A stretch of 63,907 nucleotides of DNA, the filler included, from Diploschistes diacapsis (Eukaryota): the NCBI GenBank assembly GCA_023645945.1. It is 21 parts of 21 records of this genome, joined end to end, with 100 filler letters (N's around TTAATTAATTAA, not from the genome) between each part and the next. Parts side by side here need not be neighbours in the genome. Positions count along the whole stretch, not along the records: positions 43,010 to 62,616 come from JALAIB010000366.1; positions 62,717 to 63,907 come from JALAIB010003660.1; 19 more parts are not named here. The stretch is one strand, 5' to 3'. The notes beneath the pieces were generated by a model that was given only the letters and a program-made list of their open reading frames with translations, did not search any database and was not told the DNA's origin. The translations under genes and the position numbers were made by a program. Shown piece by piece: positions 1,299-63,738 of this stretch (position 1 is its first letter; each line of letters begins with the position of its first letter).

Positions 1299-1702
1299 GT
1301 GCCATCTTCGCCGGTTTCTATAACAGCGGGGGAAGTGCCTAATAGGTAGCGCTATCCCACTGAGCCAAAAGACTAACCACAACCGCTTTCAGGAACCCCG
1401 AAGCATTGTTTCCCTATTACACTATATATAGGTGCGTGGCTGTGGCAGCCGAGGCAGATGTGTAACCTCGCAGGCCTTACAGTTTCGCCAGTTTTGCTGG
1501 TTTTGCCGATTTCGCCGTGTTTCGCCAAAAGGGTTGGCAAAACACGGCAAGTCGCTTAAACGCATTATCTATCGCCGGTTTCGCCGGTTTCGCCGGTTTC
1601 ACCAACTTCGCGGGTTTTCGCGGTGATTCGCCGCCAAAAACTTTTCGTGATGATATTATTATTTTTTAATATCGTCGGCCCGACGATTCGCCGAAGGATC
1701 TG
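1299..1702. mobile_element. End of a probable hAT-like element with many TTTCGCCGG subterminal repeats, interrupted by the solo LTR
   Basis: Repeated 9-mer (T)TTCGCCGG; ends ...TTCGCCGAAGGATCTG, which would be a CAG-starting TIR on the minus strand. The other end is not in the contig. Confidence 0.5.
1319..1481. mobile_element. Solo LTR with 5-bp TSD, related to the LTRs of the TRIM at 63038-63642
   Basis: TATAACAG...CCTTACA (TG..CA with one RIP change), flanked by GTTTC at 1314-1318 and 1482-1486. Confidence 0.85.
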
Positions 1703-15000: not shown

Positions 15001-16836
15001 CCACCTAACAGATCTGGGCTCTATCAAGCTCTCCGCTACGATTGTGCGTGGGTAATCAAATGGTGGCTATTGCGTGCCTGGGCGGCGTGGATGCAATCCA
15101 CGTGGCCCAGTTTGGGAACGTCCGGAGGGCTTCCGGGTCTGATTGTATCCAGCAATTCAAGGAGCGAACAGCATAAAAATGAACTATTGATTTGGATTCC
15201 CTCTTCTCTTCGCAGAGGCTGAACCCCCTAAGCAAGGAGACTGTCGCGAGTGCTACACGGAAACTCAAAAGTTTTGACTCGGCTGTTCTTATGAAGAGTT
15301 CCCTGAACTCCTAGCGTCCACCCACCCGGCTTCCTCGGCACGAAACGACGACAGAAAAATGCCCCGTGCTCATTCTGCGGACAGGCAAAGCTCGCCGCTC
15401 CAGCACCCGAGCTCGGGCGGCAGCAGGGGGTGTCGGAATAGCTAGGCTAGGTGATGCTGTGTTCGTTCACCCTTTCAGGTCCAATACGCGGTGACGGTTC
15501 TCAGGCGTCTCCGCGTTTAAATGGCTTGTCGACAAGATCAAGCATCTAAGCTTCGACTTGGCTGTGACCGGTAAGGGCTTTGCTGATAATATTATCTGCA
15601 GAATTTCCGTAGATATCTAGAAAAGTTGATAGAAAAGAAACAACCCCTCCTGACTTTGTCGGAAGCAACACCTGGAAGAAAGGCGTTGCGGAGAGCAGCA
15701 GCAGAAACAGGGTTAAAGAAAAAAAAAAGTGCAGCGCGATAAATATTCGGAGAGATAATCAAGGTTGGACCCAAGGGGCAGCGGAGGGTTAGGAGCGGAG
15801 GGCAGCAGGCGCTCGAACCGAAGAGATGGCCAACGGTTGGATGCAGAAGGTGGTACGCAGGCGATAGGTAGATGTGATGGGCATGGGCAATGGATGGTCA
15901 GACAAGAGTAACCCTCCGTTAGAACCTTTGAATACATATTATACTGAATGGCTGGAACCTCACAAGATAGCCATCTTAGCTTCTTCCCACCTTGACTATC
16001 TATGTCAATCACCCTCTCATTTAATGCTCATATTTTTGAGGCATGCTTGTCTCATTTTTTGTTATTACACCCTCTGCCCTCTTTACTCGGCTTCAATGAA
16101 GAGGAGCTAGCCAATCCGATTTCCTAGGGCAATCGATCTTGGTACCATCAATCCTGTAGCCGGTTCCTCTGGTCCTCGCGCCGCGGTCTCCCTCCTGCTA
16201 CAACCATCGCCATCGAGCTTAGGGCTGATCTATGTCAATGTTTATCGTCGCGTCAACAATCTGTAGGTTTGATTTGGTTACCCTTTCTACAGAGCTTCTG
16301 TGGATTTTGCCCTCAAGGTCGCCCGGATCTCCTTCTCGCTCATGTTATGCTAGCTACTCACACGCTGCACATTTCTGAACGCGATGATGGGGTTAGCAGG
16401 CCATGGATCTAGCTTACTGGACATATTCAAAGGAGTGAAGACTTTCCTCATACAATCTCTTCAAAGTTCCTCTCAGAGAGGTTTATTGAAAGGCATGATA
16501 GCGCTCATCCAAGTTCGGCTCGAATAGGCTGCTTGATCAAAGCCAGTTGTGGCAAAGTTCGTGCCTTAAACAGTCCAATTCAAGACTGCACTTATGATAG
16601 CAAGGCGCACAGTTTATTCTCTTTTTATACAAGGCTAGGCTTTTGCTGCCTACTTTCCTACGTGTTCTCGCTCGAGTGGAGCGATGCACACTGCATTAGA
16701 TGGGTGATGGTGCAGCCAAATGCCCCACTGGCCGATATATAAATTTCTGAATTCTCCCACAGGCGTTCACAGGAGAAGTCCAAATGCAAGTATATATTTA
16801 ACTGTCGTTGGTGTCTTTACAACATTTGCTGACAGC

Positions 16837-18828
16837 ATGGATGAAGCAGCCACGCAAATGATCAAGGACACCACGCATGACCTGAAGAAGATTCGGAGCC
16901 AGCTACATCAACCTATATATGCCGAGCTTCTTCGCGCACAACAGCATATCCTCTCCCAAAAACGGTCTCTCGAATATGTCAAAAGGCTAGAATGCCTCGA
17001 TGTCGGAAAGCTTATACGACCAGCCGAAGCGAGCCAAAGACAACCGGAGGCGAAGCATGTCGCAGGACCTCAGTCGGAAAAAATACCAATAAGTAAGAGA
17101 ACCCTGAACGCCATCCAGTTGTGGCAAAGAAAGTACATCGCGGTGTCTCACAGATGGCCGCCCCCTGGCAAGACAGTCGCAGATGGTAAATACCGTATAA
17201 GTGGGCAGCCGAACAAGGTGTGTAATAGTGTGCTTGAGCGGGCTATTAGCTATGCAAAATACCGCAAGTGCTCACTTCTTTGGATTGACCGAGAATGCAT
17301 CCCAGAAAACGACTCCGAGGAAAGGGATTGCGCAATACATTCTATGGACCTTGTATACAGCTTGAGCAAATATCCAATAGCGCTGCTTGTGGTCAGGATC
17401 CAATCTAATAAGGAACTGAGCCTTCTCGCGGATTTTTTGGAAGGCAAATTCGTTGATGATCATAGGAAAAGCCATCAAAATGCCATGATTAAGAGCGCTA
17501 AGGCCCGAGAAGCCTTCGAGCTCCTCGACCGCCTTACTTCTGACGAATGGTGGAGGCGGGGCTGGACTTTCCTAGAAGACTATCGTGCATCTATCAAAAT
17601 GAAAATTTTGATTCCCCATGACCATCATATCTCAGCACTTAAGAGGAGTAGTCGCATGGCATGCCTGTTCGGCAGTCTGGACGGCGAGTTGTGTGTAAAG
17701 TCGACCCGGTTTCGTCGGGAAACAAGTAGGTTTTGTCTCGCGTTCAAGGAAATATGCGATCAGCAGCAGCGACAGAAATGTGAACGAATCTTGCGACGCG
17801 CGGGAAAGTATACGGTCTTACTTCGAAATACGTGCGAAAGGTCTGGCGACTCGATCTACAGACCCATGTCTCCAACCATCTTTGAAGACATCGGGAAACG
17901 CGACATAAGCAAAATCGAGGACTGTCTCGCGATCGCCGCTAATTGTTGTTCCTATCAGGTTCGTCTCAGCACTGAATACCTGCAGAAAATCATACGTTCT
18001 TTGAGCGTCGCCCTTCTAGCACTATACCTTCTCAACGGCGAAATTTTGCTAGACGCCGATCGCAATCAAGCAGAACAGAAGGCCGCACCGTTTTCTTTCG
18101 ACGCTCCTATGATTGAGTCTCTGAAGGGTTGTTCATTGCGTCTATATGAGCCGTCAATGGATAAAGAATTGATCTTCTTGAAGAGCTGCCGCTTCCCTAG
18201 TGTCAAGCTTAGAAAAGACGGGGCTCAAACAACGGGCCATCTTTGGAAAGTGGGAAGAAGTTTCGAGCCAAATTATATGACAGGAAGTTGTCGGAAGGAT
18301 GACCGGCGTCAAGGATTGACATGGCGTGAAAGACGGTATATTCGACAGCTAGCTTCGGAATTGGGTTCGGGAAGTCATGGGCGGCAATACGTTGACCTTG
18401 CTGAGCACCTTCACGTGTATCTGGAAGAAGATGCAATACTGTCGGAAGAAGATAACCTGAGTTTAGCAAAACGTTTCAAGGACTGGATGGCCAGCAAAGT
18501 CGCCAGTGCCATTGACTCTAGCAGGAAGGTTTTATATCTTGCATGCTTGACTGACGGATCCGATCAAGCTTCGTCTTCTTACAGTGGCATCTTTGTCGGC
18601 AACGGCACTGATGTGCAGCCTCCGAGGTACATATTCACGGCCTCGAAACCGGGATGCGGCTTTGGCGACATCGGTAGACATGTCTCGCTGGAGGTGAACA
18701 TTCAAGGCCTTACAGATGAAGGTTATCCGCGGCTGTTTGCAAGAGACTGGATCTATGGTCTGTGTTTCTATACCGGCGCTAAGAAAAATCACATGGTTTT
18801 CCCCTGGCCCAAAGCTCTAACAGTCTGA
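16837..18828 (+). CDS. Heterokaryon incompatibility (HET, PF06985-type) domain protein, intronless; ORF is open from 16720
   Basis: HET blocks YIAVSHRW, LLWIDRECI, AIHSMDLVYS, WWRRGWTFLE, plus DCLAIAANCCSY in the C-terminal part. Confidence 0.88.
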   Translation: MDEAATQMIKDTTHDLKKIRSQLHQPIYAELLRAQQHILSQKRSLEYVKRLECLDVGKLIRPAEASQRQPEAKHVAGPQSEKIPISKRTLNAIQLWQRKYIAVSHRWPPPGKTVADGKYRISGQPNKVCNSVLERAISYAKYRKCSLLWIDRECIPENDSEERDCAIHSMDLVYSLSKYPIALLVVRIQSNKELSLLADFLEGKFVDDHRKSHQNAMIKSAKAREAFELLDRLTSDEWWRRGWTFLEDYRASIKMKILIPHDHHISALKRSSRMACLFGSLDGELCVKSTRFRRETSRFCLAFKEICDQQQRQKCERILRRAGKYTVLLRNTCERSGDSIYRPMSPTIFEDIGKRDISKIEDCLAIAANCCSYQVRLSTEYLQKIIRSLSVALLALYLLNGEILLDADRNQAEQKAAPFSFDAPMIESLKGCSLRLYEPSMDKELIFLKSCRFPSVKLRKDGAQTTGHLWKVGRSFEPNYMTGSCRKDDRRQGLTWRERRYIRQLASELGSGSHGRQYVDLAEHLHVYLEEDAILSEEDNLSLAKRFKDWMASKVASAIDSSRKVLYLACLTDGSDQASSSYSGIFVGNGTDVQPPRYIFTASKPGCGFGDIGRHVSLEVNIQGLTDEGYPRLFARDWIYGLCFYTGAKKNHMVFPWPKALTV

Positions 18829-55355: not shown

Positions 55356-57699
55356 CTAACAGTTTCGATGCTCCGGTGGTCTATAAGGAACACCTAAATT
55401 GGAAAATATCTTCTTCTCGTCTTGCCCTTCCACCAAATTTCCCTCGGTCATTTTCTCTCCATGTCGGCCTCGGAGAACGTCCTTGAACAAACCACGCTGA
55501 TTCAGCCGCATGCCCTTCTTCCTTGCCAAAAGTCGCATGCTGCGATTGAAAATGTCATTCCCAGTCCAGTAGATCAAGGCAGCACCAAGCTCTGAGTGCG
55601 GAACGACGAGAATATCGACACGTCGCCAAGGTAGTTTTGTGCCTGGAAGACATGCAGCGCCAAGCCATCGATTCCCTGCGCCTTCTTTACTTCGAGTCAA
55701 GTGGCATTTCAGGTAGTCCCGGTTGAACAGACGAGCAATCAGTTCTTCGAAGACTAGGTTTGAGAGTGCATCTGCAGGCAGAGTGGGGGAGGTCACCAAA
55801 AAGTCAATGTCCCCAGAATCAGATGCCCCGCGCCTATATGAGCCACCAACCAAAGCTTTCAGATGAGGTGAAACTTCCGAAACCACACCGTCCATGAAGT
55901 TTCCGTGACGTTTGACTTCATCTCGAGGAATTCGCTGTACAAAGTCATCGTAGTGATCGAGTCCAATCTGTTGATTGAGGGTAAGCTTGGCATGTTGTCT
56001 TAGATCTTCAAGGCTTCGCCAGCCACTTGCTATCCACTTGCTTGCTTGCTTCAAGCCAACTCCATAAATGTCCATGAAACTTTGACGGACTGTCTCGAGT
56101 GGATCCGATGCCGTCTCGTCGAGCCGCCGAAGTCTCTTAGTCTGGACAATTTCTTCAATCTTTTCAGCTAGGCGTTCACCAATGGATGACAATGCTCGTG
56201 CTTCTTCTTTGGTAGCAATCAGCTGAGGTTGTTGACGAAGTACATTGATCGCTTTCCGATATGCATTGGTACGCCACTGATCTTGTGACCTGTCGTAGTA
56301 AGAAGCCATCTTCTGCAATATGTCGATCGTGGAAGCATTGGGATTGCCCTCGTTGCTCTTGCCGTCGCTCTTCTTCATGCAAATGAAGTTAGCCTGCCGT
56401 AGCCTCCGATCTTTGGAAGCCGTTTGCTCTTGAGGGCCATTCTCTGCCTCACTGTCACTTGATCTTTCCCCAGGAAACTTCTCTTCAGGTGATTCATCTG
56501 TTTCATCCGTCTCGCCATCGAGTGGCTTGAATCTGGTTAATGAGGGACACGTTATGGTTGCCATGGAGACTTACCAGATCAGCGACTTCTTGAACCTCCT
56601 TAAGAGCCTCGTCTAATGCGTCAGGCAAAAAGCCCCGTCGTTCCAAAGTGCGTTTAGCTGCCGAACGAACGTCGAATACCACTTTGGGTATAAGGTTGAA
56701 TTGGAACTTCGAGGCGGTTGCAGAACCTACATTGCTGGGAACAGGAGGGGAGATTTGCATGTCCCCTGTACTCCGCCTTGTCTTCAAGCGCTTCACCCCG
56801 GATGACTGGGCCGAATAGGCTGCATTTGGACTCATAGATGGCTGCTCTGATGCCGTTGGGAGCTTTGCTGATACCATGTGCTCATGGCATGGGGGATCGT
56901 AGTTGAAGCCGTCAACGCGATGACGCGTCCGTACCGGCTCGACCCATCCATCTCGGATGCAGTCCGCCGGATACAAATCAGTTGCTAAGATAATTCCATC
57001 CTATACTATTCAGTCTGCGTAACAGTCTTAAGCTCCAGATAGTGAACCAACCGGTAAGGCTTCGATCTGAAGGCCCTTGAGCACATGTTGGTATGTTATA
57101 CCCTCGTCAGCAATGATATGAGTAATATCGGAACCTTCTCCCCATTCCTTTACTTGCACAGCGCCACGTTCAATGGCTAATCGCACCCGAATATTCCGCG
57201 GATTTCTTGGATCCTTCACTTCATTCTTAGGGAAGTAAACTAAAAAAAGTCAGCTAAGAGTTCTGCGGAATGATCAAAGAGATATCCTACAGAATCTAAG
57301 ACCTTGGAAGATTCTTTGGCTTTCTGGAAGGACACGGGGTTCTTTCGCTGCTTTCCCTCCTTTCCGTTTACTAGAGAACGAAGCACTTTTTGATTCTGGT
57401 GCTTTGGGCGTCTGTTTGCGATCCTGAAGCAACGCGCTGTCTGAAATGTTATGGCGTTGTAATGCAGGTATTCTCACTGTAGTACCGTCCGGCTTCTTCG
57501 TTCTCTTCCGGAACGCCGTGGGTTCCTCTTGGCTGGCTTTGTTCTTCAAGTCGAGGTTGGGTTGACGAGAGAGTGAGGGTTTGACAGATTCACCAGGTCT
57601 GACCTTGTCTATTGGACTACGGCCTTCGTCGATTTCGGTTTCACCGCCGCTGGTATCGTATAGCCTCTCGAAGAAGTCTCTCTTGCTTTTTGAAGCCAT
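55356..57699 (-). CDS. POL4: Family X DNA polymerase (Pol4 / pol lambda) with N-terminal BRCT, multi-exon
   Basis: WRTNAYRKAI, IYGVGLKQA, RIPRDEV, GGSYRRGASDSGDIDFLVT, RRVDILVVP, YWTGNDIFNRSMR, PPEHRNC; BRCT-like ITHIIAD upstream. Confidence 0.95.
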
Positions 57700-61208: not shown

Positions 61209-63037
61209 GCATCTTGGGTCGATATTAAGTTTGGCCGTTCATTGGGGACTTGTTATTGCTAGAATCGAAGGTCGCGCAAGGAAGTTTGAATCCTACAGTT
61301 CAATTTGCGAAACGAGACTTGGGTGCGTTAGCTGGACTACAAAGCGGCGGTTCATTATGCATCCACGATATGCTCGTTCCAACCATTGACTTCTCTGGGC
61401 AAACCTCTTCCATCAAGATTCCATTCCTTGTCACGGCGAAGCCAAACATGAGATATGTATCGATAGCCGTTCAATCCTACTTCCTTGAAAGACTGAAGTA
61501 ACGTGGAAGAGAGATCAAGTCTACCGAGCGACCACGTGACCACTTCCGACCACTTTTCGCGAGATTTCTGCAAGCTATTCACAATTTCTTCAATTCTAGG
61601 AGCTTTGGGTTACCTTCAACGACGTCGCTAGCTACCCAATTCCCTTTCGAATTTTCTCCATTCGTCAGTTCCTTGGAGACCTCTTTCCCTATCCCAAAGC
61701 TCCTCAGCCACAGCCCGTTCCTGCCTCAGGCCATAACAACGCACATGATCCCTCACCTCCTAACAAAATTCTCTCGTCCCACACACACACATGCCAGGAC
61801 CACGCTGACACTCCCGAGCAAACTATAAGGGTGACTCAACTCCTCCCACACCATCTTCCAGTTCCCAAGACTTTCGCCATTTCCTTCCCTCTGCCTCTTC
61901 CCGATCCGGAAGCTCCATCGCATCCATCAAAAGGCTCACAAAATTCCCGCAAATCGGCAAGATGATCAATCGATCCCCGCCTTTCTCTTTCCTTGCCATT
62001 CCTGCCTCCCTTTCGCCCTTCCCCCCTTCCCGCGCTTCCCTCCAATGTAACATGTTGGGTACAAAGAACAGCGTGACCATGACTTTGACTCACAGCCCAG
62101 CCTCGCCTCACTCCAGCACTAGGCTGCTAACACAGTGTGCCTTTTCAGCCCTGCCGCCTAATCTGCTCCAAGACACCAGGGCATCCACGTCACGCACAGC
62201 ACACCAATCCGCAACGTTGCGCACGTACTCACGTACCCTAGCGCCCCCCCCCCCCTTTGCGGAGCCGTTCCGGTTCTGTTCCGCACAAAATTGCACATAC
62301 CCCCACGAGGCGGAACAAGGGCCGGGGGGGGGGCGCTGGCTCCGGTTTGGCGCGCGTCCGGGGATATGCTCTTTTCTTTTCTCTTCTCTCTCTCTCTCTT
62401 TTTTACTTTATTTTTATCATCGAGTCGGCCTTTCTCTCTCTACGGTAACTGGGCGGCCCAGCCTAATTCCCCGCCCCGCCCCACATCCGTTTGTCGGTAT
62501 GTCGCTATCGCTATCTCAGGTAGTGTGGTCGCGGATGCGCCCCGGACTCCATTGCACGCGCGTTCTGCCGGTTAACAAAAGAGTTGTAGGGGGGGAGGTT
62601 GTAGTAGGATCCGAGANNNNNNNNNNNNNNNNNNNNNNNNNNNNNNNNNNNNNNNNNNNNTTAATTAATTAANNNNNNNNNNNNNNNNNNNNNNNNNNNN
62701 NNNNNNNNNNNNNNNNTTTATTTATGCATATTTTAGAATAATAAACCCCCTAACTGACCTATTATAGAATAATAAGGACGGGAAGAAATCCGAATTCCTA
62801 TCGTGAGGCGACCGGTAGTAGACCGCGTTTAAAAAATTGAAGGTTAATTTTACTCGAGTATTTATACTTATGTATTATAATCCAAAAATTTATATCCGGG
62901 TAAAGACCGATGCGATTAACTTTATTATAATAGCGATTATATCCCAATTAATAATTATGGACGGAATGTAACATCCCGTAGTTTTTTAATTGAGAAAAAT
63001 GATTCCCGCCGAAAGAAATTATGAAACCTACGACCAA

Positions 63038-63642
63038 TGTAACAGCCGGGGTAGTGCCTAATAGATAGTAACTATCCCACTGAGCCCAAAGACTGAACAC
63101 AATGCTTTCAGGAACCCCGAAGCACTGTTTCCCTATTACATTATATGTAGGTGCGTGGTTGTGGCAGCAGGAGGATCTGAACCCCAGTGCGCACACTGCG
63201 GGCGTTATAATTATCTTTTTTTTATAGTGCTGGTCCCTAGTATTTGCCACGTCTTATATAACGTTTCGAGTATATTGGATATTTTATATCGTTTTTAATA
63301 TCTACGTTATGGATTTAGAGGCGAGGTTATTTAACCGTACTTAAAGTTAATAGTATGTTTTCATATGTCGTCGATCCCGTAGGGTAGCATGCTTAATCGT
63401 AGTGTAACAAATTCGACGTACTGCTTACGCTCGTGTTTGAATTAACGATTTAAGGAATGAAAGCATAACTGTAACAGCGGGGGTAGTGTTTAATAGGTAG
63501 TAATTATCCTACTGAGCTAAAAGATTGAATATAATGTTTTTAGGAATCCCGAAGCACTGTTTCCCTATTACACTATATATAGGTGCGTGGCTGTGGCAGC
63601 AGGGGGGACCTGAACCCCGGTGCGCACACTGCGGGCGTTACA
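63038..63642 (-). mobile_element. Complete miniature LTR element (TRIM-like): LTR 63038-63209, 260-bp internal region, LTR 63470-63642
   Basis: Two ~172-bp direct repeats TGTAACAG...GGGCGTTA(C/T)A; 5-bp TSD ACCAA at 63033-63037 and 63643-63647. A minus-strand purine tract AAAAAAAAGATAAT abuts the left LTR. Confidence 0.92.
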
Positions 63643-63738
63643 ACCAAGAATTATTGGTTATTATAGAAACTTTTAAATATTAAAGATATTATTTAGAAAA
63701 CGTCCTATATATTATCGAAATTTTTACGAACCATAATA

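What the first reader, a model, noticed from the sequence alone, without database searches (positions are those of the whole stretch)
63033..63647. 605-bp non-coding LTR element (TRIM) with a Tf1-type self-priming signature
Seen: two ~172-bp LTRs, a 260-bp internal region with no ORF, and a perfect ACCAA TSD around the whole unit. Read on the minus strand, 3 nt inside the 5' LTR lies ATGCTTTCA (plus-strand TGAAAGCAT, 63458-63466), with no tRNA-type TGG PBS. Its exact complement sits inside the LTR (63102-63110; RIP-mutated to ATGTTTTTA at 63534-63542), 31 nt downstream of TATATATA (63574-63581), near where transcription should start. Established: S. pombe Tf1 and related fungal chromoviruses prime reverse transcription by pairing the transcript 5' end with a short PBS instead of using tRNA. 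Inference: a minimal self-priming parasite mobilised in trans by a chromovirus. I do not know of a described self-priming TRIM but cannot confirm novelty.
Basis: partly seen in the sequence, partly recalled or inferred. Interest (0 to 1): 0.8.

Follow-up and report, generated by a model that had tools for sequence, protein, structure and literature searches.

The report
Self-priming miniature fungal LTR retrotransposon
This is one copy of a small, gene-less, multi-copy jumping element of a fungus that probably starts copying itself with the first letters of its own RNA instead of a borrowed tRNA, and may be transcribed from a tRNA-type promoter; each trick is known, the combination in so small an element is an unusual variant.

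Summary
Confirmed: a 605-bp non-coding LTR element with a perfect TSD, inserted in a decayed Gypsy RNase H gene. It is a family: 65 interior sites; 24 of 34 two-LTR units with both ends have perfect, all different 5-bp TSDs. The 9-nt PBS/LTR complement beats chance (30 of 20000 shuffles); no tRNA 3' end in a partial set pairs over 2 nt. Two rearranged copies break exactly at the PBS/9-mer pair, as mis-annealed self-priming cDNA would. Corrections: the 1319 variant is a one-off, so covariation is not shown; TATATATA is a RIP product; no helper shares LTR or PBS, though a self-priming-type chromovirus is in the genome. Added: tRNA-type box A (in U5) and box B (in the interior) flank the PBS (0-1 of 1000 shuffles), suggesting Pol III transcription. 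The start site is unmapped. The scan noted similar self-priming TRIMs in other genomes (unchecked); I found none in the paper library.

The parts
63033..63037 (.). Target site duplication ACCAA (left)
63643..63647 (.). Target site duplication ACCAA (right)
   Evidence: removing the element and one TSD leaves one frame reading ...NYETYDQ / ELLVIIETF
63470..63642 (-). 5' LTR, 173 bp, TG...CA, R-U5 half heavily RIP-mutated
63574..63581 (-). AT-rich TATA-like element; perfect TATATATA only through RIP (family mostly ACATATA)
   Evidence: 77 of 104 ACATATA
63534..63542 (-). Predicted self-primer site in the 5' LTR (mutated in this copy)
   Evidence: 77 of 116 LTR rows read TGAAAGCAT
63509..63519 (-). 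tRNA box-A-like motif in U5 of the 5' LTR (TGGCTCAGTGG in 58 of 123 LTR rows; mutated here)
63467..63469 (-). 3-nt spacer GTT between LTR and PBS
63458..63466 (-). Primer-binding site ATGCTTTCA, complementary to the LTR 9-mer
63433..63443 (-). tRNA box-B-like motif in the interior (GGTTCGAGCAC in little-mutated copies; mutated here), 75-76 nt behind box A
63210..63469 (-). Non-coding interior, 260 bp; hairpin-rich in a little-mutated copy; ends conserved and middle variable between subfamilies
   Evidence: z -2.75 for L008; z 0.19 for L100
63210..63226 (-). Polypurine tract (G-rich in little-mutated copies, A-rich here)
63038..63209 (-). 3' LTR, 172 bp
63102..63110 (-). Intact LTR 9-mer TGAAAGCAT in the 3' LTR
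62888..63037 (+). Decayed Gypsy RNase H sequence into which the element inserted (continues after 63647)
   Evidence: (PF17917 match at C2958:172-321)
1319..1481 (-). Solo LTR of subfamily B with TSD GTTTC; private variant at the 9-mer

Best explanation
A non-autonomous LTR retrotransposon (TRIM) family of a RIP-competent ascomycete. Shown: it moved as a unit with 5-bp TSDs and left solo LTRs, tandem arrays and subfamily chimeras. Inferred mechanism: the RNA starts at or next to the LTR 9-mer; its 5' end pairs with the PBS 3 nt behind the 5' LTR, closing a long U5 hairpin; a helper RT/RNase H cuts the primer free as in Tf1 and copies GTT-U5-R; strand transfer, PPT priming and integration follow the normal LTR route with enzymes borrowed from a Tf1/sushi-type Gypsy chromovirus. 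Because primer and PBS lie on one molecule, the 9-mer occurs four times in the cDNA intermediates, and mis-annealing there explains the snap-back copy (L096) and the loop-inverted copy (L143). The promoter is more likely than not a tRNA-type Pol III promoter with box A in U5 and box B in the interior (about 0.55), so that only the 5' LTR joined to the interior would be active. The copy in the window is RIP-damaged at primer, box A and box B and is presumably dead. My odds: TRIM 0.99; self-priming 0.8; chromovirus helper if self-priming 0.8.
For: 65 interior sites, control pattern 0. 24 of 34 two-LTR units with both ends have perfect TSDs, all 24 different; 16 of 23 solo LTRs too (five rearranged loci left out). 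Complement 30 of 20000 shuffles. Of 45 true PBS rows, 43 are ATGCTTTCA or differ only by C>T or G>A (8 pattern mis-hits dropped). The 9-mer:PBS helix has probability 0.5 or more in 31 of 39 natural 5' segments. No tRNA 3' end pairs over 2 nt among 53 predictions, while the same set holds the initiator tRNA whose 3' end matches the PBS of another family in this genome (by eye). L096: whole LTR + GTT + PBS joined to inverted U3, 5-bp direct repeat outside; the arms share a variant found in 3 of 82 U3 copies and differ at 8 of 107 sites, so not a read artefact. L143: unit positions 99-180, i.e. 9-mer to PBS, inverted. A chromodomain Gypsy with an 11-nt PBS/LTR complement and a similar TATA-like distance (34 vs 31 nt) is in the genome. 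Box A + box B score within the host tRNA range, 0 and 1 of 1000 shuffles reach it; the autonomous element has neither motif. Tf1 cDNA carries single-stranded PBS at its 3' end (PMC11042837, passages); the right flank of TSD-less copies starts with GT in 8 of 16 vs 3 of 44 (hand tally, p 0.0005).
Against: No start site was mapped. No compensatory change: subfamilies A, B and C keep the same 9-mer. No coding element shares LTR, PBS or interior, so the helper is unidentified; the genome also has a chromodomain Gypsy family with a tRNA-type PBS. In whole-transcript folds the PBS goes to the 5' 9-mer in only 4 of 10 copies, to the PPT in 2 and to the 3' LTR 9-mer in 1, and the PBS-PPT duplex is stronger (-12 to -18 kcal/mol in little-mutated copies) than the primer duplex (-10.7). 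The leader duplex of the Tf1 'pretzel' does not appear when the PBS is blocked. The 9-mer starts 22-23 nt before box A, beyond the 12-20 nt quoted for yeast Pol III genes (10.1101/2020.04.17.046805, passage); a start nearer box A would shorten or remove the primer. Box B lacks the C61-equivalent base, and a T4 run precedes box A. Only two rearranged copies exist, and a 9-bp inverted repeat could also rearrange in genomic DNA. The tRNA set is partial (63 of 1216 candidates scored).
Confidence: 0.68

Rival explanations
1. Self-priming TRIM with an ordinary Pol II LTR promoter; the box A and box B likenesses are chance or relics.
For: AT-rich element 31 nt before the 9-mer, like the 34 nt in the autonomous element. 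Box A lies 22-23 nt from the 9-mer start, a little far for Pol III. No tRNA gene or Rfam match in 11 and 6 little-mutated loci. Box B lacks one consensus base.
Against: The A+B pair is reached by 0-1 of 1000 shuffles, sense strand only, spacing 75-76 in 47 of 47 copies scored. The TATA box is imperfect in the family state.
Confidence: 0.35
2. Priming by the 5' half of initiator tRNA-Met, as in Copia/Ty5 and most fungal Helenus; the helper is a Copia element and the LTR complement is incidental.
For: The first six interior bases GTTATG pair with the anticodon loop of the host initiator tRNA in the register of half-tRNA priming. Most fungal Helenus use this primer (PMC10886601).
Against: Only 6 contiguous pairs; duplex -5.7 to -6.5 vs -10.7 kcal/mol for the self-primer. 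It explains neither the LTR complement nor L096 and L143.
Confidence: 0.07
3. The 5' interior is shaped mainly to pair with the PPT end (closing the RNA into a loop) and the primer is some other RNA not in my tRNA set; the 9-mer match and the two rearranged copies reflect a short inverted repeat only.
For: PBS-leader:PPT duplex up to -18.5 kcal/mol, dominant in 2 of 10 folds. tRNA set incomplete.
Against: Against shuffled leaders the duplex is exceptional in only 2 of 5 copies (69 and 10 of 5000; others 291, 398, 1056): purine and pyrimidine tracts pair by composition. L096 has a TSD-like repeat around the whole inverted structure, which points to formation before integration.
Confidence: 0.08
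4. Self-priming, but mobilised by a non-chromovirus helper (for example a self-priming Copia lineage) or by several helpers.
For: No LTR or interior similarity to the chromodomain Gypsy loci held (best 19-20 nt, E 0.06 and 0.21). Self-priming is predicted for plant TAR Copia (PMC6317226). 5-bp TSD and TG...CA do not separate the superfamilies.
Against: In fungi self-priming is described for the Tf1/sushi group, and such an element is present. I did not search the genome for Copia elements.
Confidence: 0.12
5. Derivative of a fungal GalEa Copia element, whose PBS is replaced by a conserved hairpin site.
For: No tRNA PBS; the interior is hairpin-rich.
Against: The CTGATCAGT/CTAATTAGT motif is absent behind the LTR in all copies read, and GalEa hairpins have no complement in the LTR.
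Confidence: 0.02

Closest known systems
TRIMs (terminal-repeat retrotransposons in miniature); definitions from PMC6934838 (passages) and PMC10886601 (parts 1-4 of 6)
   Same: Under 1 kb, two LTRs of 100-250 bp, non-coding interior with PBS position and PPT, 5-bp TSD, solo LTRs, tandem arrays.
   Different: The PBS is complementary to the element's own LTR, not to a tRNA.
[quoted passage not shown]
   Same: Short PBS right behind the 5' LTR, complementary to an LTR stretch about 30 nt behind an AT-rich element; U5 hairpin next to the PBS; tandem copies sharing an LTR.
   Different: No gag, pol or chromodomain; 9-10 nt match with a 3-nt spacer; third pretzel duplex not found; probable Pol III promoter motifs.
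Helenus / TRIMp3 (Kojima 2024, PMC10886601) and Cassandra
   Same: TRIM with tRNA-type box A (TRGCY...YGG) and box B (GGTTC), 5-bp TSD, no LTR homology to a helper, length within the Pol III range.
   Different: Helenus has both boxes inside the LTR, uses tRNA primers (the paper looked for LTR-PBS complementarity and found none), and in fungi is reported from basidiomycetes. Here box B lies in the interior, the PBS sits between the boxes and matches the LTR, and the host shows RIP.
Fungal GalEa Copia with Conserved Hairpin Site (PMC5445492, passages)
   Same: Pezizomycotina-type element without a tRNA PBS.
   Different: No CHS motif; a perfect LTR complement is present.

Membership tests
TRIM | Shorter than 1 kb, two LTRs with TG...CA | tested here: met
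   605 bp, LTRs 172-173 bp
TRIM | Non-coding interior | tested here: met
   longest stop-free stretch 77 codons (85 in a little-mutated copy)
TRIM | Multi-copy, moved as a unit, TSDs | tested here: met
   65 interior sites; 24 of 34 units with distinct perfect 5-bp TSDs
TRIM | PPT before the 3' LTR | tested here: met
TRIM | PBS complementary to a tRNA (classical definition) | tested here: not met
   at most 2 nt to any 3' end and 7 nt internally among 53 predictions; set incomplete
Tf1/sushi self-priming group | PBS complementary to an LTR stretch | tested here: met
   9 nt, 30 of 20000 shuffles; 10 nt in subfamily B
Tf1/sushi self-priming group | Transcript 5' end coincides with the primer | not testable with these tools
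   no RNA run listed; contigs cannot show starts
Tf1/sushi self-priming group | Three-duplex pretzel structure | tested here: inconclusive
   primer duplex and U5 stem present, leader duplex not seen; copies are RIP-mutated
Tf1/sushi self-priming group | PBS and primer co-vary | tested here: inconclusive
   invariant apart from RIP; no relatives in other collections
Tf1/sushi self-priming group | Gypsy RT-RH-IN with chromodomain | tested here: not met
   element is non-coding; no coding partner shares its sequence. It works like the group but cannot be filed in it by phylogeny
Tf1/sushi self-priming group | RNase H cleavage releases the primer | not testable with these tools
   needs biochemistry
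Helenus (TRIMp3) | Box A and box B motifs | tested here: met
   scores 9.4-10.5 and 11.2 bits in little-mutated copies, within host tRNA range; 0-1 of 1000 shuffles
Helenus (TRIMp3) | tRNA-derived sequence with both boxes inside the LTR | tested here: not met
   box B is in the interior; no tRNA call by Rfam or ARAGORN
Helenus (TRIMp3) | tRNA or half-tRNA primer | tested here: not met
   best is 6 nt to the initiator tRNA anticodon loop
Helenus (TRIMp3) | Transcription by Pol III | not testable with these tools
   needs 5' end chemistry, inhibitors or ChIP
GalEa Copia (fungal) | CHSeq1/CHSeq2 hairpin right behind the 5' LTR | tested here: not met

The most novel reading that the evidence does not exclude
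A self-primed TRIMp3: a 600-bp parasite transcribed by Pol III from a promoter that exists only where the 5' LTR (box A) meets the interior (box B), whose uncapped RNA primes its own reverse transcription, and which needs neither a host tRNA nor any sequence shared with its helper, so that it could ride any self-priming chromovirus. A competing PBS-PPT pairing may switch priming on and off.
Probability: 0.35. Interest if true: 0.7.

Novelty: new variant of a known kind. Interest (0 to 1): 0.48.

Why it matters
It would extend Tf1-type self-priming to non-coding parasites and give a minimal natural substrate for asking what the helper RT/RNase H recognises: structure or sequence. If the split box A/box B promoter is real, it explains how hundreds of solo LTRs can stay silent and adds an ascomycete, self-primed form to the Pol III TRIMs. 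The two rearranged copies show that genomes can keep fossils of self-priming intermediates, a test usable on other families without RNA data. Practically, TE pipelines that demand a tRNA PBS will miss such elements. The components are all known biology, so the advance is modest.

Tried and rejected
Covariation through the 1319 copy: no PBS with CCGCTTTCA in the genome (0 matches); its subfamily keeps the common 9-mer. Helper sharing the PBS: all 27 matches of LTR-end + PBS pattern were family copies or unrelated chance hits. Helper sharing the interior 3' end: all 65 motif sites are in loci held; six copies that lost their 5' half (L054, L219, L226, L227, L231, L237) show no Gypsy protein match upstream. 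The chromodomain family with a similar LTR end (C738) has a tRNA-type PBS and was rejected as a self-priming helper. A generic scan of 0.79 Mb held for PBS/upstream complements returned the C466 family, subfamily B, one heavily mutated candidate (L124) and inverted-repeat noise. Metagenome collection: two patterns, 0 hits. Sequencing runs: no RNA holder listed; two DNA runs hold the family as contigs (X1 share 0.30, X2 0.12), which says nothing on starts. Rfam and ARAGORN found no tRNA or 5S sequence. Interior fold was significant in one copy (z -2.75) and not in another (z 0.19). A homolog search with the C466 RT gave unnamed Gypsy RTs and did not place it in a named clade. Paper searches for a self-priming TRIM or a Pol III TRIM in ascomycetes listed none; the library lacks most subscription papers and Repbase, and two key papers were not held. 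I did not search for Copia helpers.

Full report
Observation. The element is as described: 63038-63642, LTRs of 173 and 172 bp, a 260-bp interior and ACCAA on both sides. It sits in a decayed Gypsy RNase H gene; the left flank reads ...NYETYDQ and the right flank continues ELLVIIETF in the same frame, so the TSD marks a true insertion. The window is a chain of contigs joined by N spacers; the element lies inside one 1191-bp contig. A run labelled lichen metagenome holds the family; with the RIP-type mutation pattern this points to a lichen-associated ascomycete (inference).

Family. A genome search with the unit gave 49 matches from 40 of 207 candidates scored. A degenerate motif from the interior's 3' part occurs 65 times, its reversed control never. 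Among loci held, leaving out five rearranged loci, there are 44 two-LTR units, 38 single LTRs and 4 tandem arrays; 24 of 34 units with both ends have perfect TSDs, all different, and 16 of 23 solo LTRs have perfect TSDs. Subfamilies A, B and C differ in the first 35-40 nt of the LTR and in the middle of the interior, and share R-U5, the PBS end and the PPT end. A/B chimeras exist (L057, L088).

Orientation and PBS. Little-mutated copies have GGGGAGGGGAGATAGC directly before the LTR on the minus strand, fixing the orientation. The 9-nt complement is reached by 30 of 20000 LTR shuffles and by no other interior position. In subfamily B the match is 10 nt. Of 53 rows from the PBS tally, 8 were pattern mis-hits; 43 of the other 45 are ATGCTTTCA or its C>T/G>A variants; 77 of 116 LTR rows read TGAAAGCAT. 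There is no compensatory change. The 1319 variant is private, and no matching PBS exists. The family state of the upstream box is ACATATA in 77 of 104 LTRs, so TATATATA is RIP-made.

tRNA rival. From 44 Rfam tRNA loci (63 of 1216 candidates scored) ARAGORN gave 53 predictions, mitochondrial and some doubtful ones included. None pairs more than 2 nt at its 3' end or 7 nt internally. The first six interior bases do match the initiator tRNA anticodon loop in half-tRNA register, but the duplex is -5.7 to -6.5 against -10.7 kcal/mol for the self-primer. As a control, that tRNA's 3' end matches the TGG-type PBS of another Gypsy family here (by eye).

Folding. In 31 of 39 natural 5' segments the 9-mer:PBS helix has probability 0.5 or more and closes a long U5 hairpin; the window's own copy does not form it. 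The leader duplex of the Tf1 pretzel (10.1101/2022.12.06.519325, passages) did not appear. In whole predicted transcripts (10 of 12 copies folded) the PBS pairs with the 5' 9-mer in 4, with the PPT in 2, with the 3' 9-mer in 1, and with none clearly in 3. The PBS-PPT duplex beats shuffled leaders clearly in 2 of 5 copies: a possible alternative structure, not an established switch.

Rearranged copies. L096 is a whole LTR, GTT and the PBS, then an inverted copy of U3, with TGTAA on both outer sides. Its arms share a variant seen in 3 of 82 A-type U3s and differ at 8 of 107 sites: one template, then ageing. This is what a plus-strand strong-stop DNA would give if its PBS end folded back on its own 9-mer. 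Tf1 cDNA does carry single-stranded PBS at that end (PMC11042837, passages). L143 has exactly the stretch from 9-mer to PBS inverted; two mis-annealings at the 9-mer give this. Junction searches found only these two. The repeat outside L096 equals the first five LTR bases, and short inverted repeats can also rearrange in chromosomal DNA, so this is strong but not conclusive support. Copies without a TSD begin their right flank with GT in 8 of 16 cases against 3 of 44 (hand tally; p 0.0005). That fits retained spacer/PBS overhangs or broken tandem arrays, and is not specific to self-priming.

Helper. The genome has 73 Gypsy RNase H matches, nearly all with stops. Contig C466 holds a decayed Gypsy with RT, RNase H, integrase, SH3 and chromodomain matches and an 11-nt PBS complementary to its LTR, 34 nt behind an AT-rich box. 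So a self-priming-type chromovirus was present. It shares no LTR, PBS or interior sequence with the TRIM, nor do the other chromodomain loci held. Kojima notes that LTR homology is not needed for trans-mobilisation. The helper stays unidentified; Copia was not searched.

Promoter motifs. An earlier scan note on a basidiomycete TRIM (e1-7574941, unchecked) led me to look for tRNA boxes. U5 holds TGGCTCAGTGG (58 of 123 LTR rows, the rest being C>T/G>A variants by construction of the pattern) and the interior GGTTCGAGCAC 75-76 nt further (47 of 47 copies scored). With rough matrices from 31 host tRNA predictions both score within the host range, on the sense strand, and 0 and 1 of 1000 shuffles of two copies reach the joint score. 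The test was made after seeing the motifs. The autonomous element has neither. The spacing fits the 30-90 bp of tRNA genes (PMC5855946, section 6). Against: box B lacks one consensus base (consensus recalled), a T4 run precedes box A, no tRNA fold is called, and the 9-mer starts 22-23 nt before box A while 12-20 nt is quoted for yeast, with TBP able to shift the start within a window (another paper marks a start only 7 nt before box A). Pol III transcription and self-priming are therefore nearly, not cleanly, compatible; one 5' end experiment tests both.

Comparison. It is a TRIM by structure, without the classical tRNA PBS. It works like Tf1/sushi elements but has no coding sequence to place it among them. 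It resembles Helenus/TRIMp3 in its boxes but fails two defining features: both boxes inside the LTR, and a tRNA primer (PMC10886601, parts 1-4 of 6 read; supplements not read, and they or Repbase may hold similar families). Bivalve TRIMs lack a PBS and self-priming is only mentioned there (PMC6934838, passages). Other papers seen as passages: PMC5445492, PMC2864245, PMC6317226, PMC4717578, PMC13570524, PMC12542154, PMC5341516, PMC11724288. Lin and Levin 1997 and Atwood-Moore 2006 were not held and are known only through citing papers. Eight searches listed no self-priming TRIM. The scan's own notes list eight similar elements in other genomes, unchecked and not independent evidence.

Verdict. 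A real, well-supported TRIM family, probably self-priming, possibly Pol III-transcribed from a junction-built promoter. New variant of a known kind; interest 0.48.

Noticed in passing
window 1083, 6620 (minus), 63737: Terminal-inverted-repeat motif beginning TA-ACGTGTTTCACGGGG, recalled as resembling fungal pogo/Fot1-type DNA transposon ends; multi-copy, also inserted into TRIM copies (L054, L219).
   Followed up: no
L107, L108, L110, L114, L116, L117, L120, L121, L125 and others; window near 600-1080: The commonest chromodomain family in the genome is followed by no PPT or LTR; L125 continues into sequence that matches the window just inside the DNA-transposon end at 1083, suggesting a DNA transposon that carries a chromodomain.
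   Followed up: partly
L138 (G000:C466): Near-complete decayed chromodomain Gypsy element with an 11-nt self-priming signature; related LTRs in L131-L133 carry variants of the same LTR motif, their PBS not seen.
   Followed up: partly
L139, L145, L149-L151 (C738 family): Chromodomain Gypsy family with very short 136-bp LTRs and a PBS matching the 3' end of initiator tRNA-Met.
   Followed up: partly
L097 415-466 and 901-915; L229 1233-1245: Copies with short fold-back ends: L097 begins with inverted U5, and both end in GTTA followed by a few bases inverted from the LTR end.
   Followed up: partly
L013, L014, L028 interior: Paired deletions on both sides of a small interior hairpin (7+6 and 3+3 nt) that keep the hairpin, hinting at selection on RNA structure.
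   Followed up: no
alignment: RIP damage is strongest in the middle of each unit; the outer 100 nt or so of both LTRs are spared, so 5' LTRs lose R-U5 and 3' LTRs lose U3.
   Followed up: no
L124 minus strand near 1660-1765: Heavily mutated LTR end followed by a 10-mer with a complement 92 nt upstream: possibly another self-priming family.
   Followed up: no
window, 20 N spacers such as 1199-1298 and 62617-62716: The window is a concatenation of contigs joined by artificial N/TTAATTAATTAA spacers, so neighbours across spacers are not biological.
   Followed up: yes
window 16720-18828 (+): 702-aa ORF that by eye resembles a HET-domain protein; 55356-56564 (-) resembles a Pol X family DNA polymerase. 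Not searched.
   Followed up: no
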